Source: a virus. Taken from it: a DNA stretch of 64,000 nt. Of this stretch, positions 2,640 to 46,487 are shown in pieces (the first letter of the stretch is position 1; each line of letters begins with the position of its first letter). The stretch spans positions 6,511-70,510 of the IMG/VR virus record IMGVR_UViG_3300035698_026847. One strand, written 5' to 3'. Made by a program: the position numbers and the translations under genes. The notes beneath the pieces are model-generated. The model searched no databases and had not been told where the DNA came from. It saw nothing but the letters and a program-made list of their open reading frames with translations.

Positions 2640-3569
2640 TTAATATGGTTTCAGCATGCCCATATTTCCCTTCTCCTGGACATAGGTTGACCATGGAACA
2701 ACTCTTTCTCTCATATCGCTATTAAATCTATTTTTATCCATTCCAGATTGATACCATCCTTCGTTATCATCTCTGTTATGTGGCCAAGCACCTGGATTCC
2801 CTTTGCGTGGGTTACCAGGATTATATCTTGGATCTTTTTTTCTTCGTCCTCTAATTTTATATGTATTGGCTGGAGCAATAGCATCTCCGCCAGTATCTAC
2901 TTTTTCTACTCTAATATATCTTTCTGAACCATTTTTACCCTTTACCTTGATGACTTTGTATGATTTTCTATTCTTCTGTTTCCAATCGTCATATTCTTCT
3001 AGAGCATATTCGTTCATTTGAGACCATGGAATAACTCTTGCGTCTTCGCTTAAGTCAGTTCTACCCATCATCTGATTCGCCGGATTGTTATATGAAATAC
3101 CAGGTATCGCTGGAGTGGCTGCTACGGTATACGATCTGCGAAGTGTAATTTTATTACTAAGCCTTGTTGATTTTTGTGTTCTAATTCTTTGTTTTTTAGG
3201 TTTCTTCGTATACTGAATGTCGAAAGGTTTCATTGAATGTTTGCATTTTGTGCATTCGTATGTCAGATAATCATCTCCATCAATTGAAATGCTATAATTT
3301 CCCCAGATTCCATTCTCAGATAAATCAGCACCACAACCGTTGGCCCCTGGTTCTTCGCCACATCTATCAAGTTTAATTGGATCTGACGAATCTTTATTCA
3401 TTTTACGAACATCAGTTATCATCCCCGGTAATCTCTGTGAACCATCAGGAGAAAGTTGATTTCCTCGTAAAAGATTTTGATCAGCAAGATTCCCCGGAGT
3501 CATCACAGCATCTGGGCCAATAAATTCATTTGCCTGCTTGTTTAGTCTTTTGTACCAATTATCTAACAT
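2640..3569 (-). CDS. hypothetical protein (MLDNWYKR...) with Cys motifs, possible virion protein
   Basis: Start refined to ATG 3569 with AAGGA RBS; lies downstream of a terminator and a promoter-like motif. Confidence 0.7.
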   Translation of the reverse strand: MLDNWYKRLNKQANEFIGPDAVMTPGNLADQNLLRGNQLSPDGSQRLPGMITDVRKMNKDSSDPIKLDRCGEEPGANGCGADLSENGIWGNYSISIDGDDYLTYECTKCKHSMKPFDIQYTKKPKKQRIRTQKSTRLSNKITLRRSYTVAATPAIPGISYNNPANQMMGRTDLSEDARVIPWSQMNEYALEEYDDWKQKNRKSYKVIKVKGKNGSERYIRVEKVDTGGDAIAPANTYKIRGRRKKDPRYNPGNPRKGNPGAWPHNRDDNEGWYQSGMDKNRFNSDMRERVVPWSTYVQEKGNMGMLKPY

Positions 3570-3604
3570 TTCATACTGTTCCTTCAGACATGTATTATGT
3601 CTAA

Positions 3605-3634
3605 TATATTCGAGTATCAAGACCAAAATTCCTT
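3605..3634 (-). promoter_or_regulatory. SigH-like promoter AAGGA-N18-GAATATA
   Basis: Minus strand AAGGAATTTTGGTCTTGATACTCGAATATA; same pattern at 10248-10277; resembles the Bacillus sigma-H consensus AGGA-N17/18-GAAT. Confidence 0.5.
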
Positions 3635-3639
3635 GCACT

Positions 3640-3684
3640 AAAAAGAAAAGACCCATCTTTATTCTATGGAATAAAGACGGGCCT
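3640..3684 (-). terminator. Rho-independent terminator after the helicase gene
   Basis: Minus strand AGGCCCGTCTTTATTC-CATA-GAATAAAGATGGGTCT stem (with G:U pairs) followed by a T tract. Confidence 0.8.
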
Positions 3685-3708
3685 AAACAATTTACTTAAT
3701 AAAACTTA

Positions 3709-6700
3709 TTAGAGATTTAAATGTTCATAAACCTTTTTATATGTCGTTTTACCGATTGCCTTTTCGCAGACATCTTTATTTGATGGATCTAAAATTTGAG
3801 ATTGGGAAGTAATACCTTTTGCCTCAAGGTTTTCTGCCCTTTTCTTACCTATATTCGGAATATCGACTAACTCTGCCAATGTTCCGCGAACACCATACTT
3901 CAACCTACATTCAAGATTCTTCCAATCTCTACCCCATCCAAATCCCGGAACTTTACCTGGATTTCGTTTATGGAAATATCTTCCGACATACATGTCGCAT
4001 TGTCTCAAAGTGGAGATAACTCTTTCTATGTCTCTTGTTATACCCATAAAATACGAATTTAAAGGAGAACTAACCTCTTTGCCGCTTAATAATCTGTAAA
4101 AAATAGCTACATACTTTATGTTTGGATTGTTATCTGGAGCCATATTCAGCAAATTTGCCACTTCCATAACATCTTCTGTGGCTTTTTCAAGATTAGTGAT
4201 ATAGACGCCTGCACTTGGTGCTTGAACAAATTTCCTAGTAAATTCATCATACTTCCATGTAATACCCCAGTTATAACATCTTGCTAATGCAGTAGCAATT
4301 CTTAAATTATCTTGAACTTCGACATCATATGGGGCTCCTACTTTTGTTTTTATTCTATAAATTTTACTAAAATTCTTAAACCAATCAGACACATCGAGAG
4401 GGCTCATGTACATTTTGGCGGTTATTTCGCCAAGTTTTGTAGCCTTATATTCTCCATTTTTTAGCGATATCATTGATCGCATACGCAGATTTTCAAGAAC
4501 CGTGTTACATTTTTCAACTGATAATGGTTTTCCCTGAAGACTGGCAAGTGTCTTCTTATACCATTCGAAAAAGTCTTCTGCGTTTTTGATAATCCCATCA
4601 CATATATAGGAAAGAATATGGAACATCAATAGATTAGGATCACTAAGAGTTGATTCGATTAGATAGTCTTGAAAAATTCTCTTTTGCTCTTTTGCTTTCT
4701 CATGAGCTGGGATAACGACTATTGCATCACCTTTATCGCTCCATCCTGTTCTACCGGCTCTACCAATCGCCTGAATAATATTTGATGGATGCATTGGAGT
4801 TAATCCAAATTTTGTATGTGACTGGATAACATATCTTGCAGCTGAATTAATTCCCCAAGATAAAGTGGTGGTGGCAATCAATACATTAAAGTCTCCATTA
4901 CGAAAGCCTTCTTCAATGTCTTTTCTCCCATGAACAGTTATACTACCATTTTCACCTTTTATTTTCTTAGTTTCTCGTCCAATATCAGCATTATGGAAAC
5001 GATGATCAATTTTCTTTCTTAGTAATTCTGAAGACAGTTTTCTACCAAATGCTTTTGATCCGGTAAATACCAATATTGGCTCATCCTTATAGCGATCAAC
5101 TAGATCTACTACTTTGGAAAGTCTCTTTTCTTCAATTTTCGCATATGCTCTTTGAGAGCTGAATGTTTCAACACGTTTATTCAATTTACATGGTCTATAA
5201 CTACTAACGATCATTTTTGACGGTCTGCCAGTCATATGTTCTAACCATTTCCCAAAGTCATCTACATTGGGGAGTGTTGCCGATAGAAATAACGCTCTTG
5301 ATTTTGGAGAATTTTCAAAGTATTGAATCAATCCAACTTCTAAAGCATCACCTCTTCCTTCAAGCCCGATTAAATGACAATTTGAAACTAAAACCGAATT
5401 TGCGAAATAATTATGATTATCTTCAACTTCTAAATTGTAAACATGTTTTATTTTTCCGCTTCCAAATTTATTGACTTCAATTACCTTACAGTCATGATTT
5501 CCTATGAAAGTTTTAATTTTTTCTTTATCTATTTTTTTAGCATCTAGATATAGGCATTTGTATTTAATTTCATTATATTTTTTTATTATTTCATTTTTTT
5601 CTTCTATAGTATGCCAATATTCAAAATCTCCAACTTCTATAACCTTTTTCTGTCCTTCGATTATAAAATCTGGATTTTTATTTTTTCCATTTTTAAATCT
5701 AACCCAAAAAGATCCGTCTCCAGTATATTTTAAATCTTTTAATTCCATTTTAATTATTTCTAATTCACATGATGTCTTTCTGTCTTTATTATAATATGGA
5801 GCATTCATGAAAATTTGTATTCTTTTATTCCTTTCTTCTTCAGGCATATTATCCCACCATTTTTTTATTCCATATTTCATTTTTTTCAATGTATCTTCAT
5901 GCCTGAATACAGGATTATTTTTTCCTCTCCTTTTCTCTCCCATTTTCTTCATTGATTTCCAGAATTCAGGATTGTTTAATCTTTTTTTTGTATCTTTTTC
6001 TATATCTATTTTCGAATGCATATCATTATGAGCAACTTGAGTATGACCCATTAGTTGATATTTATTGTCAAATTTTCTATTGCATAAATCGCATTTAATT
6101 GAATATTCAATTCCATGATTTTTCATATAATGTTTAGATAATGTTTTTTCATTTTTATAATATGTTTTGCATTTCTCACAATGCCAATTTTTTTTTGCTG
6201 TTTTGTTTTTATGAGAAGATATATGTCTATTCATTTCACCTTTCATCAAAAAGGTATCAAAACATAAAGGACATTCATATTTTGTTCCACAATTTTTTTT
6301 ATGTTTTGTAAAATCACTAAACCTTCTGTATATCCTGTCACATACACTACATTTATAATTCATTCCTCTTAGATGACTTTCAATATAATGTGGAACTAGT
6401 ATTTTCTTATGTATTTTTTTATTGCAAATTGGACATATATTATCTCTAGATGTACCTATTGTTTTTATAATGTCATTTTCTTTAATATTTTCTGCCTTAA
6501 TAAATCCTTTATTTTTTACCCATATTTTATGGTTTTTAGTACAGACAATTTTCTTCTCGTCTTCATTATCGTTTAAAAATTTTATAGAAACCATTCCGCT
6601 TCCAGAAAAATCGTTTTTTATTTTTCTAATAACTTTTTTCTTTTCAAATTTTTTTTCTTCAAAGTTATATGACATTACATGCGTTATAGAATCGGATTCG

Positions 6701-7263
6701 TATATACTTTTAATTGGGACTTCTATATTTTCATCAATTAATATTTTTGTTTTAGCAGGAAAACATTCATCAGTTACTAATGTAGAATCTTTGAGCCAGG
6801 TATGTACATTGAAAAAACGGCATTTCGAATTGAACATCTCTGGCGTCAGTATGATTAAATTAGCCTTTTTTAATCTACTTTTTAGCTCATCGGTGACATC
6901 TATGTCCCCTGTTAATATTTCAATTCTAAATTTACTGAAAGTATGTTCTTTGCTTGTCCATTCTCGATATTTTTCATCAGCCAAAGCCTTCATTGGAGCG
7001 ATGTATAGAACTCGTTTTTTCGTTTTAATTGCTCTTGCCGCGAATAACTCAGCGATAACTGTTTTACCACCTGATGTTGCGGCAGCAACAACGACATTTA
7101 CATCATCTTCTTCGTTATATGGAAGATAATCGCTCTGTGGTGGATTCAAATATTCAAACGGTAATGAGAGATATTCTTTCACCTCATCCGTATGAACACA
7201 TGGATATGGTTTATTGTGCTTACCAAGAGGTTGCACAACTTTTGTTGGATATTTTTTTGGCAT
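3709..7263 (-). CDS. Ski2/Hel308-like SF2 helicase containing an intein
   Basis: ATSGGKT (motif I), APMKALA, TPE, spliced DE|CH motif II, LSAT, QAIGRAGR (motif VI), C-terminal HhH (IPNIGKKRA). Confidence 0.9.
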   Translation of the reverse strand: MPKKYPTKVVQPLGKHNKPYPCVHTDEVKEYLSLPFEYLNPPQSDYLPYNEEDDVNVVVAAATSGGKTVIAELFAARAIKTKKRVLYIAPMKALADEKYREWTSKEHTFSKFRIEILTGDIDVTDELKSRLKKANLIILTPEMFNSKCRFFNVHTWLKDSTLVTDECFPAKTKILIDENIEVPIKSIYESDSITHVMSYNFEEKKFEKKKVIRKIKNDFSGSGMVSIKFLNDNEDEKKIVCTKNHKIWVKNKGFIKAENIKENDIIKTIGTSRDNICPICNKKIHKKILVPHYIESHLRGMNYKCSVCDRIYRRFSDFTKHKKNCGTKYECPLCFDTFLMKGEMNRHISSHKNKTAKKNWHCEKCKTYYKNEKTLSKHYMKNHGIEYSIKCDLCNRKFDNKYQLMGHTQVAHNDMHSKIDIEKDTKKRLNNPEFWKSMKKMGEKRRGKNNPVFRHEDTLKKMKYGIKKWWDNMPEEERNKRIQIFMNAPYYNKDRKTSCELEIIKMELKDLKYTGDGSFWVRFKNGKNKNPDFIIEGQKKVIEVGDFEYWHTIEEKNEIIKKYNEIKYKCLYLDAKKIDKEKIKTFIGNHDCKVIEVNKFGSGKIKHVYNLEVEDNHNYFANSVLVSNCHLIGLEGRGDALEVGLIQYFENSPKSRALFLSATLPNVDDFGKWLEHMTGRPSKMIVSSYRPCKLNKRVETFSSQRAYAKIEEKRLSKVVDLVDRYKDEPILVFTGSKAFGRKLSSELLRKKIDHRFHNADIGRETKKIKGENGSITVHGRKDIEEGFRNGDFNVLIATTTLSWGINSAARYVIQSHTKFGLTPMHPSNIIQAIGRAGRTGWSDKGDAIVVIPAHEKAKEQKRIFQDYLIESTLSDPNLLMFHILSYICDGIIKNAEDFFEWYKKTLASLQGKPLSVEKCNTVLENLRMRSMISLKNGEYKATKLGEITAKMYMSPLDVSDWFKNFSKIYRIKTKVGAPYDVEVQDNLRIATALARCYNWGITWKYDEFTRKFVQAPSAGVYITNLEKATEDVMEVANLLNMAPDNNPNIKYVAIFYRLLSGKEVSSPLNSYFMGITRDIERVISTLRQCDMYVGRYFHKRNPGKVPGFGWGRDWKNLECRLKYGVRGTLAELVDIPNIGKKRAENLEAKGITSQSQILDPSNKDVCEKAIGKTTYKKVYEHLNL
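5380..6765 (-). mobile_element. 462-aa intein in helicase motif II with a C2H2 zinc-finger array and Vsr/PD-(D/E)xK-like endonuclease
   Basis: Starts CFPAKTKILI; block B CTKNHKIW; block F VYNLEVEDNHNYFAN; ends VLVSN|C; removal restores DECH. Confidence 0.92.
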
Positions 7264-7289
7264 TTTTTTCCGCTTTCCAAGAGATTAAT

Positions 7290-7829
7290 TTAAAGGCGAC
7301 GCTTTCTCTTACGGAAATTATACGATGATTGAGGTGAGTTTTTTGATTTCGGTTCTGTTTGATGTTTTCGTGGAGACATAAGTCTTTCTTTAATTAAATC
7401 GATATGTTTCTGAAATTCACTTCTTGCAGGATTATCATCTATATCATTATTTTTTTTATTTCGTTTAAATTGCCTAGATAATCTGTCAAGCTTCTTAATC
7501 AATCCTACTACTTTACATGGACGAATCATGATTTTTTGAGAACCAGAAGACATTGGCTTCAAAAATAAACTGATATTGTCATGAGATATATTATTGTCAA
7601 TACCTATGAATTTTTCCAACAAAGTAACAAGTCCAAACATTTCTTCTGGAGTTTCTGGATCGTGTAAACCTCTTGCAACAACTGTTTTTAGAACAGTATA
7701 TCTTGATGCCGCGTTTAGTTTCCTGTCTTGTTCTTCAAAACCATCTATAATGATATCAAGATTATTAAACAAAAATTCTTTTTGTTCTCGATTAAGATTA
7801 AATGCTTTTTTGTAAAGATTATATAACAC
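7290..7829 (-). CDS. hypothetical protein (MLYNLYKKAF...)
   Basis: 179-aa ORF packed between genes on the coding strand. Confidence 0.65.
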   Translation of the reverse strand: MLYNLYKKAFNLNREQKEFLFNNLDIIIDGFEEQDRKLNAASRYTVLKTVVARGLHDPETPEEMFGLVTLLEKFIGIDNNISHDNISLFLKPMSSGSQKIMIRPCKVVGLIKKLDRLSRQFKRNKKNNDIDDNPARSEFQKHIDLIKERLMSPRKHQTEPKSKNSPQSSYNFRKRKRRL

Positions 7830-7831
7830 TT

Positions 7832-8917
7832 TTATCCCTCTATGAATTCAAACTTGATATTGTTTTGCTTTAGAAATGGTTTTACCACATCAATTGGAAT
7901 AGCTGCATTTAATCCGGAATCTCCACCTTCTTCAGTATTGATTACAGCTGCTGCAATTCCGATTACTGCTCCGTTTGATATCTTAACAACCGGACCTCCG
8001 CTATTCCCTGGATTGATATTTGTTGACACGAATAGGTATTGTTTGGCACCCTCACCTTCTTGATAGTCAATTGGAGAGCTTGAAACAATTCCTTTTCCTA
8101 GAACATTTTCAAATCCAAGTGGAGTTCCAACGGTTATGATTTCTTCTCCGGGGCTAATCTGACTTGAATTTCCAAGACGCAGAGGACTATTGAATGCGAA
8201 AGATGGATCTGCGATAGAAATGACTGCGGCATCAATGTTTACGTCATGTGCGACAATTTGACCTGGATAATCTTGTTTATCAATACGTATCGAAATCTGA
8301 GCATCAAGTGATTTAAATCCTGGGATAACGACGTGGGCACATGTTAATATAAGATTTGGACCTATGAAAAAACCACTACCTATTTCACGAACACCATCCA
8401 AGGTTGTATTGATCGTAATCGTTGATTGAAAAACAGATAAAGTAATATCTTTACTGTTCTGTTCCGGTTGAGGCTGCTGTGATTGTTGCTGTTGTGGTTG
8501 TGGTTGCTGTTGTTCTTGCTCTTCTTTGTCTCCTTTCATGATTTCTTTATATGTGTTAGAGAACCAATCAGAACCTCCCCATGTCGGCATTTTTGGCCCT
8601 TCGGTTCCCCATTGAGATTCTTTTTTCAATCTATTAAAGAAGGCACTAATAGTTGTTTTTTTTATTCTTTTACGATTTTTTTTCTTTTTCTTTTTTTTTA
8701 ATTCTTCTAATTTCTTTTCTACTAGTGGATTTTTATCGTCTTTCTCCATATATCGATTAGCGTGTCCTTTACCCGTACTCGGTTCAAGTAATCCAAAATG
8801 TTCATCTCCACCAGCATGTCCCCATGGAGAAGTACGAGTTTTGTCGGTAAGCTCGGAAGGACCAAATGGATCTACTCCGAAAAGACTGGAAATTTTATAC
8901 CAATATTGATTTTTCAT
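7832..8917 (-). CDS. trypsin-like (S1/HtrA-type) serine protease with a long low-complexity N-terminus and no PDZ domain
   Basis: Catalytic triad contexts TCAHVV, IDAAVI and NPGNSGGP; poly-K and Q/P-rich linker. Confidence 0.9.
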   Translation of the reverse strand: MKNQYWYKISSLFGVDPFGPSELTDKTRTSPWGHAGGDEHFGLLEPSTGKGHANRYMEKDDKNPLVEKKLEELKKKKKKKNRKRIKKTTISAFFNRLKKESQWGTEGPKMPTWGGSDWFSNTYKEIMKGDKEEQEQQQPQPQQQQSQQPQPEQNSKDITLSVFQSTITINTTLDGVREIGSGFFIGPNLILTCAHVVIPGFKSLDAQISIRIDKQDYPGQIVAHDVNIDAAVISIADPSFAFNSPLRLGNSSQISPGEEIITVGTPLGFENVLGKGIVSSSPIDYQEGEGAKQYLFVSTNINPGNSGGPVVKISNGAVIGIAAAVINTEEGGDSGLNAAIPIDVVKPFLKQNNIKFEFIEG

Positions 8918-9770
8918 AAGAAAATCTCCAACCTTTAACTGTTTTTATTTTTCCGCTTAAACACATACTTATGTTAGAAGAAAATAGACCTAATTTTTTA
9001 GCAGCATTAGTTTGTGAATTAAAATCTATAATTTTATTTCCTTTTTTAGCATAAAATACCTTATAAATATCTGTTTTTATAATTTCATCATAGTTAATTT
9101 TATCATATGAAAAATGCCATCCATCAACTGTGTTTCCATTCCCCTTTCCGTTTAGAATTGCATTAATATAATGTCTTTTAATTCCAATTGATCTTTCTCC
9201 CTCTCTTTCACTATAAAATTCTAAAATTAAATTTTCTTTTTGTGCGAAAAAAAGATTTGGATGATTTTCATCTTTATTATATGTAAAAAACCAGCCGTTT
9301 GATGTATTTCTTTTTCCTTTTTTCTTTAATATTTCAGAAACATGTCTTCTGTTACATTTGATTTCTTTAACCGCATCTGATATTAAATTAAATTCCAATG
9401 TCCAGCCGTTTTTCTTAGCAAAAAAAGACTTTCCTCCCTTTTTTCTACTTATTTTTATTTTCGTTTCCGCTGAATGTTTTCCGCCTCTTCCACCGTCTTT
9501 TATATTATATCCTATATTTTTATCTGTTGAATCGAATTTTATTATATAAAAAGATTCTAATTCATCTAGTTCTTTTTGATTATCTGATTCTGCTAAAATT
9601 TTCCAATCAAAATTATCTTTACCGTATTTCCTTAGTGATCTGCCTATTAACATAGATCTTTTTTCTCTATAATGATTCCCAATTCTTGTTTTTAGACTTT
9701 TCCATGTTTGGCCAATATATATTTTTTCATTTATTTTATTTTTCCCAAGATATATGATTCCTTTTTTCAT
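8895..9770 (-). CDS. free-standing GIY-YIG homing endonuclease with NUMOD-like DNA-binding repeats
   Basis: GIIY...YIGQT, conserved R and E residues, GYN, HSAETKIKIS (NUMOD3-like), three HTH repeats ending GWxF. Confidence 0.9.
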   Translation of the reverse strand: MKKGIIYLGKNKINEKIYIGQTWKSLKTRIGNHYREKRSMLIGRSLRKYGKDNFDWKILAESDNQKELDELESFYIIKFDSTDKNIGYNIKDGGRGGKHSAETKIKISRKKGGKSFFAKKNGWTLEFNLISDAVKEIKCNRRHVSEILKKKGKRNTSNGWFFTYNKDENHPNLFFAQKENLILEFYSEREGERSIGIKRHYINAILNGKGNGNTVDGWHFSYDKINYDEIIKTDIYKVFYAKKGNKIIDFNSQTNAAKKLGLFSSNISMCLSGKIKTVKGWRFSYEKSILV

Positions 9771-9785
9771 TTTAATTAATCTTCT

Positions 9786-41490: not shown

Positions 41491-42600
41491 CTAGACCGAT
41501 AAATCCTTCTGGATAGACATGAAATTTGGAAAAGATTTTTCGTTTATTGGTATTTCTCTTATCTTCTCTAGAATATCATCAGATATTTTATCTGAAGGAA
41601 GTTCATATAAAATCTTAATATACTGATTTCCAAAAACATCTAATCTAACTTGTTTTCTAAACCCCTTTTTCTTAAGAGTAATAACATATTCGTCTCCTGG
41701 ATTTGGAGGTATGGTATATTTCTCGGTTCCATGAAGGGTTGGAATTTTAATTTCTCCGCCAGAAAAAACAAAATGTACAGGGACTGGCATATTCATATAT
41801 ATGTCGTAATTATTTAATGTAAAAATATTATGCCTTAATAGGTTCGTCTGAAACAACACATCTCCAAACATACCATCCTTTTTTTGGTTTCCTTTTCCAC
41901 GAACCTTAATGGAAAGATTATCGTGAGTTCCAGGAGGAATTTTTAATATGTGTTTTTCTGTTTTTTGTTTAAATCCATTACCAGAACACTCTTTACATTT
42001 GTTCTGTATTTCCTGTCCAGAGCCAGCACACTTAAGGCATATTGTCCTTGAGGAAAAAAACCCTCCTCTATTTGATATTCTGACTCCAGCTCCGTTACAA
42101 TAACTACATGTTATTACATTTGGTTTTCCATCTGCTCCTGATCCTGAACATTTTTCACAACGAAAAATTCGATTATATTCTATTTCTTTTTCACATCCAT
42201 TAAACGCCTCTTCTATGGTTATTTCAATTATTATCTTAATATTTACTGGAGGTGCCTTTCTTTGGCCGGTTCTTTGTTGATTGTATTGGTTTCCTGTAGC
42301 AAATCTTTCAAAAATATTAAATGGATTAAATTCTCTATTTCCGAATGATCCCATGTTAAAAGACTGATTATTGAAGGAGAAGTTTATTGTATTCACTCCT
42401 CCATGATCATACATCTGTCTTTTATTTTCGTCAGAAAGAGTCTCATAGGCTTCTGAGACTTCTTTAAATTTATCTTCTGCTGAAGAATCGTTTGGATTTT
42501 TATCTGGATGATACTTTAAAGCTAGCTTTCTGTAAGCTTTTTTAATCTCATCCTGTGTTGAATTCTTTTTAACATTTAGAATTTTATAATAGTCTTTCAT
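41491..42600 (-). CDS. dnaJ: DnaJ chaperone
   Basis: J domain with HPD; four CxxCxGxG repeats; C-terminal domain. Confidence 0.95.
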
Positions 42601-44189
42601 TAAAATAAATTATCCTGCATAATAAGAGCATCTTGCATAGATGTAATACTAACATCAAACTCTTCTTCTTTCTCTAAAATTTTAAATCTCTCTTTTGAAT
42701 GATCGGAAACCCATCTTCCGCCATCCATAAAGTCAAAAACATAAGATTTTTGTTTTTCGTATGATATTTTTGGATCTACTCTAATTACCCTACCGACTCT
42801 CTGTTTGGCTCTAGTAGCTGCTTTTCCCCCTCCAGCTAGTATCAATCCACTAAGACATGGTAGATCCAGACCTTCGTCAGCAATAACAGATCCTATCAGA
42901 ATTGATATTTTCCCATTAACAAAATCAGACAAAGTATTTCTTCTCTCTTTCTTAGGGGATGAACCGTGAAGAAAAACTGAACCTGGCAATTGAGATTTCA
43001 ACATTTTACCATGTGCTATTATCTGAACAAGGATCATCGTTTTTATATCTTGACTCATTAAAAGATTCGCCAAACTAATTATACACTGATTTCTTTGTTC
43101 ATTCTCTGTAATATGTGATTTTCTGTCTTCTGACCAAGTATTTACTAAAAACGGTTTTTGTTTTAAGTCGATAAATTTTATGTTTGGTTTAACAAGATAT
43201 TTTAACTTAATCAATTCTGAAGCTGTAACGACTGATGTTTTTCTCCCAAAAAGACCCTCTATAGTTAAATACGAGTTGTCTATTCGTTCTGGAGTCGCAG
43301 ATCCCCCAAAACGATAATAAGCGTTTGGAGATTTTAACATTATAGATTTACATGTTTTTGTAGAAAAATGGTGAACTTCATCTGCATATATCCCAACAGT
43401 TTCTGTTATCAATTTTTTTATTAAGTTTCTTTTCTCTTCACTTTCAAGATGTTTAAGATCTTCTTTTTTAAACTCTTTATATTCGGATTCATCCCATTCT
43501 GCAGCGTTTTTAATTTCTTTAAGATATTTTTCTATTGCTTTTTTTGATTTTCCACTAAGATAACATGTAGTAGCTGTTTGAACTGTAACGATGTTTATAT
43601 CTCTTATATCACACTGTCCATCTCCTACAAGACCTACTTTTAATCCTGGGATTGCTTCTTCTAATTTTTCTTGAGATTGGTACATTAAGTCTTTTGTTAG
43701 AACATAAAAGATAAATGGAGCAACACCAAGCTCCTGAATAATCTTAGCTACTATTAGAGTTTTTCCTCCGCCAGTGCAGCACTCTATTATTCCCCTTCCT
43801 CTTCTAATACAGTTTTCAACAATCTCTGTTTGATATTCTTTCCTTAATTTATACTTTTCATGATTCCATGAAAGATCTAATGTTTTGTTTGGTTTTTTAG
43901 TTTCCCAAACGATATCTGGAGTTATGTTATAGTTTTTTCTAAAAAAAGTAACTACTTGATGTGCCAACCCAGAAAGAAAGGTACTTGTTTGTCTTCTATA
44001 AAGATGTATCTTTCCATCCCAAGCTTTTTTCTTTTCTTCTGGATCTTCAATATTTCCAATATATTTATCAGAATATTGACATCCAGGAACTATGAAAGAG
44101 AGATATTCGTATAATTCTCCTCTTACATTATATGGAATGTTTTCTACAGTAGACCATAAATTGCGTAGTCTTATTTTTGGTTTAGCCAT
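42600..44189 (-). CDS. UvsW-like SF2 helicase
   Basis: [31 protein letters not shown]. Confidence 0.9.
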
Positions 44190-44268
44190 CTTATTCTGTC
44201 TATTTCCTCTACCAGTATATAAGATAAAGTGATTCTGGTCTTTTTAAATTATGTTTTAGAAAAATTAT

Positions 44269-44601
44269 TTTTTCTTACCAAGACACTCCGCAGGAGAGTC
44301 TTGCCAGACCACGAAGTGGCTGGCTAATAAAGAAAATTATGCAGAGAATGTTGTTTGATTGATGTTAGATTTTTATTTTTGAAAAAGGTATAATGCTGAA
44401 TCTACTTGGTTTACGAGATTTTCAGAAAAAAAAATGAAGAAAGAGCTAAAACTTTTCCTAAAATTTACGATATTAAGACCGGGTACGGGCTCAGAACCTA
44501 TGTTTCTAAACTTTGGCTTCTAATCTTATTCTAATTTCTTTCTAAGCCAGCCACTTCGTGGTCTGGCAAGACTCTCCTGCGGAGTGTCTTGGTAAGAAAA
44601 A
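44269..44601. repeat. perfect 57-bp inverted repeat (44269-44325 / 44545-44601) with 219-bp spacer at the strand switch; candidate replication origin
   Basis: Arms checked base by base as reverse complements; each arm holds two hairpins with C-GCA-G and C-GAA-G loops. Confidence 0.9.
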
Positions 44602-44774
44602 TATATAAACATATGAAACAGAAACCTATTATAAGCTTCAAATAAATTTAGAAATAAGCTTATTAGAAAAAAAAAAAATATTATATGTTCGAATTTTAAG
44701 AAGTTTATAATAAGTAAAAATTTTTTATATGTTTCGTTTTTCACTAAAATATTTAGCGATTTTATCGATACTAT

Positions 44775-45623
44775 ATGAGAGATCTTAAGATGATATTAGA
44801 AGATATTATATATAAGAAGCCAGAAAGACGTAGACCCAAAGATACTCCGTTATGTGCCTATAGTCCAATTGATTGGTTTCATCTTTTTGCCGCTAAGTAT
44901 CTATATCACACAGGAGAAAGATATAAGTTTACTAATTATAAGAATCAGATTTGGTATATATCAACTATATATGGAATTGTTGTTAATAAATATAATTGGA
45001 GTGCTAGAGATTTTGAAAAATTTATAACAGATATCGCAATTAGATATACTCTTAAAAGGGGTAGAACTCCTAGTTTAAGAGTATTTGCGTTAAATAGTAA
45101 ATCTCATGGTCTAATTAGGATGTTTGATGAGATATTAGTAAGAGAAAGAACACATGATTATTTTGAAAGAATTGTTTTTGTTAAGTTTTACCCACTTAGG
45201 CCAAGTCAAAGAGATCTTGAATTATTTTTTAACAATATGCATAATGAAGGCATTTTATATAATTATGGAATAGTTAATTACCAGAGGTATATTCAGATAA
45301 AACACAAACTATCTTTATCTGAATCGATTAATAAAACTAAAGAAGATTTCCTTAAATATGCTTCCAAAATAAAGAGAGATATAAAAACAAGAGATAGATT
45401 TATTGTTGGAGTTTTCAAGAACTCGGTGTTATGGGAACCGTATACTACTCGTAAGCAGCGAGACATGTATGGCGAAGATAATCTAATTGTAAATTGGAGA
45501 AATGTTTTTAAGAAGATTATCGATCATTTTGATCTTCAAAAAGAAAAATGGTGGAAAGATAAATCATATACATATGAGATTATACAAATAAAAGCAGTGA
45601 ATGATTTTTTCAAAACATTATGA
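44775..45623 (+). CDS. hypothetical basic protein, candidate replication initiator
   Basis: First gene after the inverted repeat and upstream of DnaC-like and DnaB genes; function inferred from position only. Confidence 0.5.
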   Translation: MRDLKMILEDIIYKKPERRRPKDTPLCAYSPIDWFHLFAAKYLYHTGERYKFTNYKNQIWYISTIYGIVVNKYNWSARDFEKFITDIAIRYTLKRGRTPSLRVFALNSKSHGLIRMFDEILVRERTHDYFERIVFVKFYPLRPSQRDLELFFNNMHNEGILYNYGIVNYQRYIQIKHKLSLSESINKTKEDFLKYASKIKRDIKTRDRFIVGVFKNSVLWEPYTTRKQRDMYGEDNLIVNWRNVFKKIIDHFDLQKEKWWKDKSYTYEIIQIKAVNDFFKTL

Positions 45624-45635
45624 AGGATTTAATTT

Positions 45636-46487
45636 ATGTCAAAAGAACATATTGGATGTGAGGATTTACCAGACGATAGAATGAAAAATATTCTTTCCGC
45701 ACATATTGGTTTAGAAAATAGAATTAAAGAAAAACTTAAAAAAGAAAGTAATATTCCAAAGATTTATTGGAAATATAGTTGGAAAAGCTATCAGCCTAAA
45801 AACAACATAAGAGAGACTGGAGATATTAATATTCCAGGAGTTGTTAAATCAAGATTGGAAGCGAAGAAGAAATGTTTACTTTTTGTTAGAGATATAATAT
45901 CTTCATATAAAGAAAAAGACAATAAAGATGAAAAAAATTCATTATGTTTAATTGGTCATAGCGGATCTGGGAAGTCTGTTCTTGGAACTTTAATATTAAG
46001 GAACGTCATACATTTCCTTAAAGAATCTGTATTTTACGAGACATTTAACCAATTAGTAATAGACTGTAGGACGGCTAATTTCAAAGAACATGCAGAAGAA
46101 TTGTTTGATAAATATATTGAACCAGAATTTCTAATGATTGACGAAATAGAAAGGGGATATTATTTAGATGAGAAAATAAAAACATACATTTCTATTATCA
46201 TTGGAAGAAGAGCTTCAGAATGTAGACCGACAATTTTAACGGCGAACATAGAGATATCAGAAGAACTTTCAAATATTTTAGGAGTTTCTACATATAGGGT
46301 GTTGGAAAGAGGATCGGTATACTATAAACCTATTGAAATAGACACCCTAGTTAAACATAAAAGAATTGATTTAAAAAAATTAAAAAAAGAATTAGAATCT
46401 GAAAAATATAATAGAAAATATTATATTTCACGAGAAGATTTTAGTGAAATGACAACAAGGTGTATAGAGGGGTATTTTCATGGGTAA
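45636..46487 (+). CDS. DnaC/IstB-like helicase loader ATPase
   Basis: SNIPKIY, GHSGSGKS, LMIDEI, PTILTAN. Confidence 0.85.
   Translation: MSKEHIGCEDLPDDRMKNILSAHIGLENRIKEKLKKESNIPKIYWKYSWKSYQPKNNIRETGDINIPGVVKSRLEAKKKCLLFVRDIISSYKEKDNKDEKNSLCLIGHSGSGKSVLGTLILRNVIHFLKESVFYETFNQLVIDCRTANFKEHAEELFDKYIEPEFLMIDEIERGYYLDEKIKTYISIIIGRRASECRPTILTANIEISEELSNILGVSTYRVLERGSVYYKPIEIDTLVKHKRIDLKKLKKELESEKYNRKYYISREDFSEMTTRCIEGYFHG

What the first reader, a model, noticed from the sequence alone, without database searches (positions are those of the whole stretch)
5380..6765. Intein carrying a natural zinc-finger nuclease: five tandem C2H2-type fingers fused to a Vsr/PD-(D/E)xK-like endonuclease
Seen: between the intein splicing blocks, at 6028-6435, are five consecutive fingers: CPIC-x11-H-x4-H, CSVC-x12-H-x3-C, CPLC-x12-H-x3-H, CEKC-x12-H-x4-H and CDLC-x12-H-x4-H, mostly with the aromatic/hydrophobic core residues of classical fingers. 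They are followed by a NUMOD-like basic segment (GEKRRGKNNPVF) and a nuclease-like domain TSCE...NPDFIIEGQKKVIEVGDFEYWH. Known: intein homing endonucleases are usually LAGLIDADG or HNH; Vsr-like (EDxHD) homing nucleases exist; tandem classical C2H2 arrays are chiefly eukaryotic. Inference: this is a homing endonuclease whose specificity for the intein-less DECH codons is read by a modular finger array, paralleling engineered ZFN architecture.
Basis: partly seen in the sequence, partly recalled or inferred. Interest (0 to 1): 0.9.

Follow-up and report, generated by a model that had tools for sequence, protein, structure and literature searches.

The report
Phage intein with zinc-finger nuclease
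A phage helicase gene carries a self-splicing intein whose built-in homing nuclease joins five classical zinc fingers to a Vsr-like DNA-cutting domain, a natural counterpart of engineered zinc-finger nucleases that has not yet been tested at the bench.

Summary
Window 5380-6765 (- strand) is a 462-aa class-1 intein inserted at motif II (DE|CH) of a 1184-aa phage SF2 helicase. It holds five tandem C2H2-type fingers at 6028-6435. Shuffles give at most one, and the array matches CTCF, ZNF568 and Zif268 chains.

The following domain is a Vsr-like/EDxHD nuclease. The best structural match is I-Bth0305I, Z 9.3, and 10 of 23 relatives hit Pfam Vsr.

It belongs to a large metagenomic family of 650 clusters. 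Of 157 relatives examined, 65 are helicase inteins, with 0-4 fingers among the 46 with clean junctions, so five is the maximum seen. Of the 36 closest helicase orthologues, 34 lack the intein and 2 keep only a mini-intein there, as expected for a mobile element.

The claim that the fingers read the DECH codons is not supported, because one-finger relatives sit at the same site.

Vsr-like homing nucleases and phage C2H2+DUF559 proteins are already known. I rate this a new variant of a known kind. The scan's notes show no earlier sighting. Activity is untested.

The parts
3709..7263 (-). Host gene: SF2 DEAD/DEAH-type ('replicative superfamily II') helicase precursor, 1184 aa, of a phage-like virus contig
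   Evidence: ORF and translation. Pfam DEAD 1.9e-18, Helicase_C 3.6e-13, ResIII. Intein-less orthologues of 700-726 aa, best P0164 at 74% identity. Phage context: terminase, RNR, Pol III alpha, RecA-like. The record is a 70.5-kb IMG/VR virus contig.
6766..7263 (-). N-extein (helicase residues 1-166), ending in motif II Asp-Glu
   Evidence...LVTDE | C
5380..6765 (-). Class-1 intein, 462 aa (Cys1 ... Ser461-Asn462, then Cys+1)
   Evidence: Pfam Intein_splicing 8.1e-16. TIGR01445 and TIGR01443. In the 45-row alignment C1, T76 and N462 are invariant and H79 and the +1 Cys are >=90% conserved.
6451..6765 (-). Intein N-terminal splicing subdomain (residues 1-105; block A Cys1, block B T76-x-x-H79)
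   Evidence: Beta-rich with pLDDT 85-97. TIGR01445 covers 1-82. Retained in the mini-intein of P0172.
6373..6435 (-). Finger 1 (residues 111-131), C-x2-C-x11-H-x4-H; the family-conserved finger
   Evidence: C111 and C114 are invariant and H126 is >=90% conserved in 45 sequences. Modelled with two bridge residues plus helix 120-132 at pLDDT 85-90. Best Pfam hit is only zf-Di19, E 0.0026.
6289..6351 (-). Finger 2 (residues 139-159), C-x2-C-x12-H-x3-C (C2HC)
   Evidence: zf-C2H2 E 5.7e-5. Strands 137-138 and 145-146 plus helix 149-158, pLDDT about 77.
6211..6273 (-). Finger 3 (residues 165-185), C-x2-C-x12-H-x3-H
   Evidence: zf-C2H2_4 E 1e-5. Aligns to CTCF fingers. Not modelled with confidence: residues 169-191 have pLDDT < 50.
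6115..6180 (-). Finger 4 (residues 196-217), C-x2-C-x12-H-x4-H
   Evidence: zf-C2H2 E 0.011. Strands 194-195 and 202-203 plus helix 206-217, pLDDT 74-82.
6028..6093 (-). Finger 5 (residues 225-246), C-x2-C-x12-H-x4-H
   Evidence: zf-C2H2 E 3.7e-5. Strands 223-224 and 231-232 plus helix 235-246, pLDDT about 80.
5776..6027 (-). Helical basic linker (residues 247-330) with the family motif R-x-G-x-N-N-P; aligned with NUMOD3 repeats of relatives
   Evidence: Helices 255-263, 266-278, 292-305 and 309-321. N284 and P285 are >=90% conserved. 3 of 23 relatives hit Pfam NUMOD3, best 1.3e-7. The window's own segment has no NUMOD hit.
5500..5775 (-). Vsr-like (EDxHD-type) nuclease core (residues 331-422); candidate catalytic residues E334 (5764-5766), D366 (5668-5670), E377 (5635-5637), H385 (5611-5613)
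   Evidence: AF2 model with pLDDT 88.1. Foldseek top hit 3r3p_B, E 7.9e-3, prob 0.99. VIA-align 3r3p_A Z 9.3, rmsd 2.6 over 85 aa, and Vsr 1cw0 Z 7.6. In the profile search of PDB sequences the only 4 hits are three Vsr entries plus 3r3p. Invariant N-P-D-F, E and H.
5380..5499 (-). Intein C-terminal splicing subdomain (residues 423-462; blocks F/G ...YNLEVEDNHNYFANSVLVSN)
   Evidence: TIGR01443 covers 441-462. Strands 423-461 at pLDDT 89-97. Conserved in 45 sequences.
3709..5379 (-). C-extein (helicase residues 629-1184 plus stop), starting Cys-His of motif II
   Evidence: Orthologues found.

Best explanation
This is a mobile (homing) intein of a large phage. It is translated inside the helicase and splices itself out by the class-1 route (Cys1, Thr-x-x-His, terminal Asn, Cys+1), which restores the DECH motif II.

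The freed 462-aa intein is a bipartite homing endonuclease. A DNA-binding arm holds it on the intein-less helicase allele of a co-infecting relative. The arm consists of one family-conserved C2H2-like finger, four further classical fingers and a basic helical NUMOD3-like linker. A C-terminal Vsr-like (EDxHD, I-Bth0305I-type) Mg-dependent nuclease cuts near the DE|(C)H codons. Recombinational repair then copies the intein in, together with the Cys+1 codon.

The conserved parts (finger 1, linker, nuclease) most likely recognise the shared motif-II site. Fingers 2-5 were added stepwise in this helicase lineage. They most likely extend contacts into the flanking, lineage-specific helicase DNA, giving extra length and specificity.

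Shown here: the domain identities, their order, family conservation, the presence/absence polymorphism and the HE-less derivatives. Inferred: zinc binding, DNA binding, the cut site, and the division of labour between fingers and nuclease.
For: Intein: Pfam and NCBIfam hits and invariant splicing residues in 45 sequences.

Fingers:
- Five motifs against at most one in 100,000 shuffles.
- Pfam zf-C2H2 and zf-C2H2_4 above their cut-offs.
- 84 PDB sequences at E<=0.01, all of the 60 listed being C2H2 poly-finger proteins. The best are CTCF 2.2e-15, ZNF568 and Aart, with Zif268 about 1e-6, and some alignments span query 7-140.
- Beta-beta-alpha pattern with pLDDT 74-90 for 4 of 5 fingers.

Nuclease:
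- Model pLDDT 88.1.
- Best structural matches are I-Bth0305I (Z 9.3), the DUF559-like 3hrl (8.6), Bax1 (8.1) and Vsr (7.6).
- The profile search of all PDB sequences returned only three Vsr entries plus 3r3p.
- 10 of 23 relatives hit Pfam Vsr and 3 of 23 hit DUF559.
- E334, D366, E377 and H385 are conserved. They line up with Vsr-family E25, D51, the family's invariant Glu and H69, as described in PMC3239194 and PMC2677866 (passages).

Mobility:
- 34 of the 36 closest helicase orthologues have an uninterrupted DExH, including P0164 (74% identity, 724 aa = 1184-462+2).
- 2 of 36 (P0172, P0196) carry a related mini-intein at the same site, lacking exactly the finger-nuclease insert.

Family: 650 clusters at E<=1e-3. 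Of 157 relatives examined, 65 are inteins, 16 have the N-intein block only and 74 have no intein block. The 3-5-finger inteins cluster together and sit in the same helicase family.
Against: - No experiment exists. Zinc binding, DNA binding, cleavage and splicing are all inferred.
- The window's own nuclease segment does not reach any Pfam nuclease family.
- The PDB profile hits are marginal (E 0.028-0.045). Foldseek's best E is 7.9e-3, above its 0.001 line. Z 9.3 is only moderately above the 'middling' range the tool warns about.
- The fifth EDxHD residue (I-Bth0305I Asp222) has no clear counterpart. Only E388/E389 lie nearby, and the alignment puts Asp222 in an insert.
- Finger 3 is not confidently modelled. 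Finger 1 is atypical (x11; best Pfam E 0.0026).
- Relatives with one or no regex finger occupy the same site, so the extra fingers are not needed to find it.
- For I-Bth0305I the paper places most specificity in the dimeric nuclease domains and calls the N-terminal contacts largely non-specific (PMC3239194, passage).
- The closest intein-less orthologue reads DEIH, not DECH.
Confidence: 0.6

Rival explanations
1. The architecture is the same, but the fingers are not sequence readers. They act as a non-specific DNA clamp, spacer or distance ruler. Specificity lies in the Vsr-like domain (perhaps as a dimer) and the conserved linker, as proposed for I-Bth0305I.
For: The I-Bth0305I paper assigns specificity mainly to the nuclease domains and calls the N-terminal contacts largely non-specific (PMC3239194, passage). 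One-finger and no-finger relatives share the DE|CH site. Some relatives carry arrays of C4-type zinc modules instead of C2H2 fingers (P0019, P0025), which suggests interchangeable accessory modules.
Against: Fingers 2-5 have the canonical C-x2-C-x3-aromatic-x5-hydrophobic-x2-H spacing and match sequence-specific DNA-binding arrays best (CTCF, ZNF568, Zif268). Finger number rises stepwise within one helicase lineage, which looks like selection for added recognition length.
Confidence: 0.25
2. The endonuclease is decaying or already inactive. The intein persists by vertical descent only, and the finger array has no present function.
For: HE loss does occur at this very site: P0172 and P0196 keep only mini-inteins. 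No second copy or target exists in the held contig.
Against: The 462-codon frame is open. All 20 zinc ligands and the family-invariant nuclease residues are intact. The closest relative, P0014, keeps the same fingers and nuclease at 57% identity.
Confidence: 0.08
3. The fingers serve something other than homing, for example zinc- or redox-conditional control of protein splicing, or RNA binding.
For: Weak Pfam hits to RNA-binding finger types for finger 5 (zf-C2H2_jaz E 0.0012, zf-met 0.0028). The array lies next to the splicing domain.
Against: The array is always coupled to the nuclease in the family. It is lost together with the nuclease in the mini-inteins, and zinc modules also precede the nuclease in relatives that lack a complete intein.
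Confidence: 0.05

Closest known systems
I-Bth0305I and the EDxHD (Vsr-like) homing endonuclease family (Dassa et al. 2009, PMC2677866; Taylor et al. 2011, PMC3239194; PDB 3r3p)
   Same: Same nuclease fold, and the best structural match (Z 9.3). Conserved Glu / Pro-Asp / Glu / Trp-His residues. Same order: DNA-binding modules N-terminal, nuclease C-terminal. Found in phages in DNA-metabolism genes.
   Different: Those enzymes are free-standing ORFs, either in group I introns or between split-intein halves. Dassa et al. wrote that Vsr-like enzymes were 'not known to be present in inteins' (passage). Here the module is fused in frame inside a contiguous intein. Their DNA-binding region is NUMOD/HTH; here it is a C2H2 array plus linker. 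The word 'finger' does not occur in PMC2677866. The equivalent of Asp222 is unclear here.
Free-standing phage 'DUF559 / zinc finger C2H2' proteins (automatic names of ESM Atlas clusters)
   Same: C2H2-type finger(s) followed by a Vsr/DUF559-type nuclease in Uroviricota proteins of about 214-290 aa (scores 0.90-0.91, leads only).
   Different: They are short proteins, not inside inteins.
Engineered zinc-finger nucleases (C2H2 array fused to the FokI cleavage domain); recalled, not from a call
   Same: A tandem C2H2 array joined by a linker to a separate, non-specific-looking restriction-fold nuclease domain.
   Different: This one is natural. The nuclease is Vsr-like, not FokI. The fingers are N-terminal with a helical linker of about 85 aa. 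It is embedded in an intein. Modular 3-bp reading and any need to dimerise are unproven.
R2 non-LTR retrotransposon protein (N-terminal C2H2 fingers plus a restriction-like endonuclease)
   Same: A site-specific mobile element that combines C2H2 fingers with a PD-(D/E)xK-superfamily nuclease. R2 structures appear among the weaker fold matches (9dou Z 4.9, 9nl2 Z 4.5). That R2 has N-terminal fingers is recalled.
   Different: Different nuclease subfamily and a different mobility mechanism (target-primed reverse transcription). It is eukaryotic.
[quoted passage not shown]
   Same: Vsr-like homing nuclease physically associated with a full intein in phages (passages).
   Different: In the first the nuclease is encoded on the opposite strand, not in frame. 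The second is a one-sentence mention. Neither text contains the word 'zinc'.

Membership tests
Intein (HINT, class 1) | N-terminal Cys/Ser nucleophile, block B Thr-x-x-His, C-terminal Asn, +1 Cys/Ser/Thr | tested here: met
   C1, T76, H79, N462 and Cys+1 are present and conserved in 45 sequences. The penultimate residue is Ser, not His, across the family. This is a variation and, from recall, not a defining feature.
Intein (HINT, class 1) | Curated profile match | tested here: met
   PF14890 58.6 bits against a cut-off of 35.8. TIGR01443 27.4 against 15.6. TIGR01445 23.2 against 24.5, just under.
Intein (HINT, class 1) | Protein splicing activity | not testable with these tools
   Needs expression of the precursor.
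EDxHD / Vsr-like homing endonucleases | Vsr-type alpha/beta nuclease fold | tested here: met
   3r3p_A Z 9.3, rmsd 2.6 over 85 of 97 residues. 3hrl Z 8.6 and 1cw0 Z 7.6. Foldseek rank 1 is 3r3p_B, prob 0.99.
EDxHD / Vsr-like homing endonucleases | Composite motif E, D, x, H, D (I-Bth0305I E170, D196, N208, H213, D222) | tested here: inconclusive
   E334, D366 and H385 are conserved, as is the family's extra invariant Glu (E377). The last Asp has no clear equivalent: Asp222 falls in an insert of the HMM alignment, and E388/E389 are the nearest acids.
EDxHD / Vsr-like homing endonucleases | Sequence-profile membership (Pfam Vsr / DUF559) | tested here: inconclusive
   The window's own segment has no hit at E<=1. 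Its phmmer relatives hit Vsr (10 of 23, best 5.3e-5) and DUF559 (3 of 23). The profile of the family hits only Vsr and 3r3p in the PDB, at E 0.028-0.045.
EDxHD / Vsr-like homing endonucleases | Site-specific double-strand cleavage next to the insertion site | not testable with these tools
   Bench assay needed.
Classical C2H2 zinc finger (zf-C2H2) | C-x2-4-C-x12-H-x3-5-H ligand spacing with a conserved hydrophobic core | tested here: met
   Fingers 3, 4 and 5 are exact. Finger 2 ends in Cys (C2HC). Finger 1 has x11.
Classical C2H2 zinc finger (zf-C2H2) | Curated profile match | tested here: met
   On the intein, PF13894 scores 34.9 against 27 and PF00096 scores 32.7 against 25.2. Single fingers each fall below the cut-off on their own, with best E 1e-5 to 0.011 for fingers 2-5.
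Classical C2H2 zinc finger (zf-C2H2) | Beta-beta-alpha fold | tested here: inconclusive
   The DSSP pattern is present for fingers 1, 2, 4 and 5 at pLDDT 74-90. Finger 3 (residues 169-191) has pLDDT < 50.
Classical C2H2 zinc finger (zf-C2H2) | Zinc and DNA binding | not testable with these tools
   Needs metal analysis and binding assays.
NUMOD3 DNA-binding motif | Pfam PF07460 match in the linker | tested here: not met
   No NUMOD hit for the window's segment at E<=1. 3 of 23 relatives hit it (best 1.3e-7), at positions aligned with the window's FRHEDTLKKMKYGIKKWW. It may work like one, but it is not filed as a member.

The most novel reading that the evidence does not exclude
Phages have evolved their own modular zinc-finger nucleases. 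In this intein lineage classical C2H2 fingers were added one at a time (1 to 3 to 4 to 5) to a Vsr-like cleavage module, with each finger reading about 3 bp of flanking helicase DNA. On this reading, target length and specificity are tuned by finger gain, and the module moves between free-standing, N-intein-fused and fully intein-embedded forms. If so, it is a natural and compact alternative to FokI-based ZFNs, and a live example of the step 'endonuclease gene inserted in frame into an intein' that Dassa et al. proposed.
Probability: 0.3. Interest if true: 0.8.

Novelty: new variant of a known kind. Interest (0 to 1): 0.6.

Why it matters
Homing endonucleases inside inteins are almost always LAGLIDADG or HNH. 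The texts I could search describe the Vsr-like (EDxHD) family only in three settings: free-standing genes, genes beside split inteins, and genes antisense to inteins. [quoted passage not shown]

Here a Vsr-like module sits in frame within a contiguous intein. It also carries a five-finger classical C2H2 array, a DNA-reading device best known from eukaryotic transcription factors and engineered nucleases. The family offers a natural series to study: 0-5 fingers, C4 modules in place of C2H2 fingers, mini-inteins that lost the module, and forms fused only to the N-intein.

That series could show how modular DNA recognition is bolted onto a nuclease and how endonucleases enter and leave inteins. 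If the fingers are specific, it could also yield small new cleavage or binding scaffolds for genome engineering. Everything functional is still prediction.

Tried and rejected
1. INPHARED phages: megablast of window 3000-12000 and tblastn of the intein found no match. The tool notes that records near the window may be left out.

With the single intein it found no relative. With the 5-row alignment A2 it gave 27 viral loci.

3. Pfam on ten short relatives found no nuclease family. The link to Vsr came only from scanning all A1 members.

4. Pseudo-palindrome idea. The window's joined flanks contain ATGA-n3-TCAT around the insertion point. The three relatives with both junctions in held DNA use other codons (GATGAA|TGCCAC, GACGAG|TGCCAT, GACGAG|TGCCAC), so I dropped it as a family feature.

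5. Ectopic targets. The joined 18-, 12- and 11-nt target strings occur nowhere else in the window. The second SF2 helicase (42600-44189) reads DEVH.

6. Complex prediction on two copies of the nuclease core (A1 residues 80-179) gave no verdict, score 0.09 against a mark of 0.42. This is neither for nor against dimerisation.

7. The search of earlier findings returned nothing on this element or on look-alikes elsewhere.

8. Literature:
- 'intein' + 'homing endonuclease' + 'C2H2' gave 6 papers, none on such an element by title or abstract start.
- 'zinc finger' + 'homing endonuclease' + 'Vsr-like' gave 4 papers, none describing one.
- The phrases 'natural zinc finger nuclease', 'zinc finger homing endonuclease' and 'C2H2 homing endonuclease' have 0 occurrences.
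- These searches cover only the held library. Supplements are closed and I did not open them. The supplementary alignments of PMC2677866, PMC3239194 and bioRxiv 2022.08.31.505936 could contain finger-bearing members.

9. I did not attempt a recognition-code prediction of finger targets. It would rest on recalled rules and was not tested.

Papers and what I saw of them:
- PMC3239194: passages.
- PMC2677866: passages.
- bioRxiv 10.1101/2025.01.02.630785: passages.
- PMC12768974: passages.
- bioRxiv 10.1101/2022.08.31.505936: passages.
- PMC3592412 and the others: search listing only.

Full report
**What is there.** The window is part of a 70.5-kb IMG/VR virus record that CheckV rates 34% complete. 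Its genes are phage-like: large terminase, class II ribonucleotide reductase, Pol III alpha, DnaB-like and RecA/UvsX-like proteins.

On the minus strand, 3709-7263 encodes a 1184-aa SF2 helicase with DEAD, ResIII and Helicase_C domains. Coordinates 5380-6765 translate without a stop into 462 residues. The segment begins with Cys, ends Ser-Asn and is followed by Cys-His. The flanks read LVTDE | CHLIG, so the insert splits helicase motif II. Pfam Intein_splicing scores 58.6 bits against a cut-off of 35.8, and the NCBIfam intein N- and C-terminal models confirm an intein.

**The fingers.**
- In 100,000 residue shuffles of the intein the motif never occurred more than once.
- Pfam zf-C2H2_4 and zf-C2H2 pass their cut-offs on the intein.
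- Taken singly, fingers 2, 3 and 5 reach E 1e-5 to 6e-5, finger 4 reaches 0.011, and finger 1 only 0.0026, to zf-Di19.
- Against all PDB sequences the 146-aa array matches 84 distinct chains at E<=0.01. All 60 listed are C2H2 poly-finger proteins: CTCF 2.2e-15, ZNF568, Aart, TFIIIA, and Zif268 near 1e-6. The alignments run across all five fingers.
- In an AlphaFold2 model of the whole intein (45-row alignment, mean pLDDT 84.9), fingers 1, 2, 4 and 5 show two short strands followed by a helix at pLDDT 74-90. Finger 3 (residues 169-191) is below 50.

The beta-beta-alpha fold is therefore predicted for four fingers. For the third it rests on sequence only.

**The nuclease.** Residues 247-425 hit no Pfam family. 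An exhaustive phmmer search with that segment found 650 representative clusters at E<=1e-3, of which 140 are at <=1e-10.

I aligned it with 22 short relatives. The invariant columns are N-P-D-F, a Glu, a His and a Cys, and a Glu in the first core helix is nearly invariant. In intein numbering these are E334, N364-F367, E377, H385 and C404.
- The profile of this alignment, searched against every PDB sequence at E<=10, returned only four sequences: three Vsr endonuclease entries and 3r3p, the I-Bth0305I catalytic domain, at E 0.028-0.045.
- The AlphaFold2 model has pLDDT 88.1. Foldseek ranks 3r3p first, at E 7.9e-3 and probability 0.99.
- VIA-align gives 3r3p_A Z 9.3 (rmsd 2.6, 85 residues), then the DUF559-like 3hrl at 8.6, Bax1 at 8.1, RAP-domain mitoribosomal proteins at 7.5-7.9 and Vsr 1cw0 at 7.6.
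- Ten of the 23 aligned members hit Pfam Vsr on their own (best 5.3e-5) and three hit DUF559.

According to the I-Bth0305I paper the family motif EDxHD stands for E170, D196, N208, H213 and D222, equivalent to Vsr E25, D51, H64, H69 and D97 (PMC3239194, passages). Dassa et al. note an extra invariant Glu at the Vsr Phe62 position (PMC2677866, passage). E334, D366, E377 and H385 fit these. The last Asp has no clear counterpart. I therefore call the domain Vsr-like/EDxHD-type, with one motif position unresolved.

**The linker.** Residues 247-330 are helical and basic. They hold the family-conserved R-x-G-x-N-N-P. They do not hit NUMOD models themselves, but three relatives hit NUMOD3 at aligned positions.

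**The family.** I examined 157 relatives, dropping two eukaryotic zinc-finger proteins that matched only the array (P0005, P0013).
- 65 have BLAST matches to both the N- and C-terminal splicing parts of this intein.
- For 46 of those 65 the extrapolated junctions read exactly DE|C and N|C, so they share the helicase motif-II site.
- 16 have only the N-terminal part, and ten of these end 62-68 residues after the nuclease core.
- 74 have neither part, are 84-505 aa long, and are free-standing genes or fragments.

The hosts are different SF2 helicase families: DEAD/Helicase_C, XPD-like Helicase_C_2, and RAD25-like with an N-terminal PDDEXK_1 domain.

The first finger's two cysteines are invariant and its first histidine is >=90% conserved across 45 aligned inteins. 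By a loose regex the 46 clean inteins carry 0 (10), 1 (22), 2 (9), 3 (4) or 4 (1) fingers, and the window's five is the most seen. Reading the sequences shows that several of the 'zero' cases have a C-x2-C...H half-motif or C4 modules.

In a FastTree tree built from the non-finger columns (midpoint-rooted; support values not inspected), the 3-, 4- and 5-finger inteins form one group. All four that I scanned (P0016, P0017, P0020, P0038) sit in DEAD/Helicase_C hosts like the window's. The closest relative, P0014, is 57% identical over the insert. It is an N-terminally truncated gene call that starts inside its finger array and shows at least three fingers.

**Evidence for mobility.** I searched with the C-extein and inspected the 36 best helicase orthologues.
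- 34 have an uninterrupted DE-x-H, with x = Ile 17, Cys 6, Ala 5, Ser 3, and Thr, Val and Met once each.
- This includes the best hit, P0164, at 74% identity and 724 aa.
- Two (P0172, P0196) are interrupted at the same point by short inteins. Their splicing blocks closely resemble the window's, but they lack the whole finger-linker-nuclease insert.

Empty sites, full inteins and endonuclease-less mini-inteins in one orthologue group are what the homing cycle predicts. Most empty sites lack the Cys codon, so the Cys+1 is probably carried in with the intein by co-conversion. That last point is inference.

**How it most likely works.** After translation the intein splices out. It then acts as a bipartite homing endonuclease: the DNA-binding arm anchors it on an intein-less allele, and the Vsr-like domain cuts near the DE|xH codons.

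One-finger relatives use the same site, so the conserved parts probably recognise it. Fingers 2-5 are a lineage-specific extension and probably contact flanking helicase DNA, which differs between lineages. Whether they read bases or merely add affinity is open. For I-Bth0305I the authors place specificity mainly in the dimeric nuclease. A homodimer prediction for the nuclease core gave no verdict (listed under Tried and rejected only).

**Comparison with what is known.**
- Vsr-like homing endonucleases were described as free-standing genes between split-intein halves, in group I introns and elsewhere. The authors stated that they were not known inside inteins, and their model proposed in-frame insertion as a possible step (PMC2677866, passages).
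- A 2025 preprint reports antisense Vsr-like genes within actinophage inteins and says the only earlier intein-associated report was the split-intein one.
- The word 'finger' does not occur in PMC2677866, and 'zinc' does not occur in either preprint. In PMC3239194 the 'zinc' passage I read concerns Vsr's own zinc site; I did not read its 'zinc finger' mentions.
- ESM Atlas clusters of short phage proteins are automatically named 'DUF559/Zinc finger, C2H2 type' (scores 0.90-0.91, leads only). The finger-plus-Vsr pairing therefore already exists in databases.
- My library searches found no paper on a C2H2-bearing intein endonuclease. Supplements were closed.

I therefore rate this a new variant of a known kind. 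It is an in-frame EDxHD-type endonuclease in a contiguous intein, carrying the longest classical finger array seen in its family.

**Limits.** Everything functional is predicted. The structural and profile links to Vsr are consistent but individually modest. Finger 3 is unmodelled. Finger counts depend on a regex. The tree's support was not assessed.

Noticed in passing
window 30892-34311 (-) and 34861-38598 (-): Two more intein-bearing genes sit in the same window. One is a ClpB-like AAA+ ATPase (1139 aa) with a LAGLIDADG_3 hit at residues 469-522. The other is a class II ribonucleotide reductase (1245 aa) with Intein_splicing at 363-709 plus LAGLIDADG_3. This phage therefore carries at least three inteins with two endonuclease types. 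The scan's note e1-6181002 calls the Clp one a class 3 intein.
   Followed up: partly
window 8895-9770 (-): Free-standing 291-aa homing-endonuclease-like gene two genes from the helicase. PHROG 'homing endonuclease' families hit it (phrog_314 5.9e-28), one of them described as 'homing endonuclease with GIY-YIG motif' (phrog_5123).
   Followed up: no
relatives P0019, P0025, P0031 (terminase-like), P0028 (helicase) and others: Ten relatives have the N-extein, the N-terminal intein part, zinc modules and the nuclease in one ORF that stops 62-68 residues after the nuclease core, with no C-terminal intein block. This looks like the endonuclease fused to the N-half of a split intein, an intermediate between 'fractured genes' and contiguous inteins. 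P0019 and P0025 carry about five or six tandem C4-type modules (C-x2-C ... C-x2-4-C, often F-C-S-x2-C) instead of C2H2 fingers.
   Followed up: partly
relatives P0172 and P0196; Mini-inteins at the same motif-II site in orthologous helicases. Their splicing blocks are very like the window's, but the whole endonuclease insert is missing. P0172 also has a second intein further downstream.
   Followed up: partly
relatives P0016 and P0020; Helicase orthologues of about 1515 aa carry the three-finger Vsr-type intein at motif II and also a second intein with a LAGLIDADG domain later in the protein.
   Followed up: no
window 42600-44189 (-): A second SF2 helicase (ResIII, Helicase_C, ERCC3_RAD25_C) with motif II DEVH and no intein. 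Relatives of this intein do occupy RAD25-like helicases elsewhere.
   Followed up: partly
window about 44000-46000: Gene strand switches here (minus-strand genes up to 44189, plus-strand genes from 44775). GC skew changes sign between 42001-44000 (-0.168) and 44001-46000 (+0.162), with the lowest G+C of the window (0.286). The scan's note e1-6180994 proposes an origin here. I did not examine it.
   Followed up: no
window 6422-7129 (+): A 235-aa ORF antisense to the intein/N-extein region. It is rich in Phe, Ser, Leu and Ile and lies wholly inside the helicase gene. It is most likely a chance frame in AT-rich DNA.
   Followed up: no
relative P0023 (3117 aa); A very long protein with three matched stretches to the nuclease segment (best at 1757-1889). 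Its architecture was not examined.
   Followed up: no
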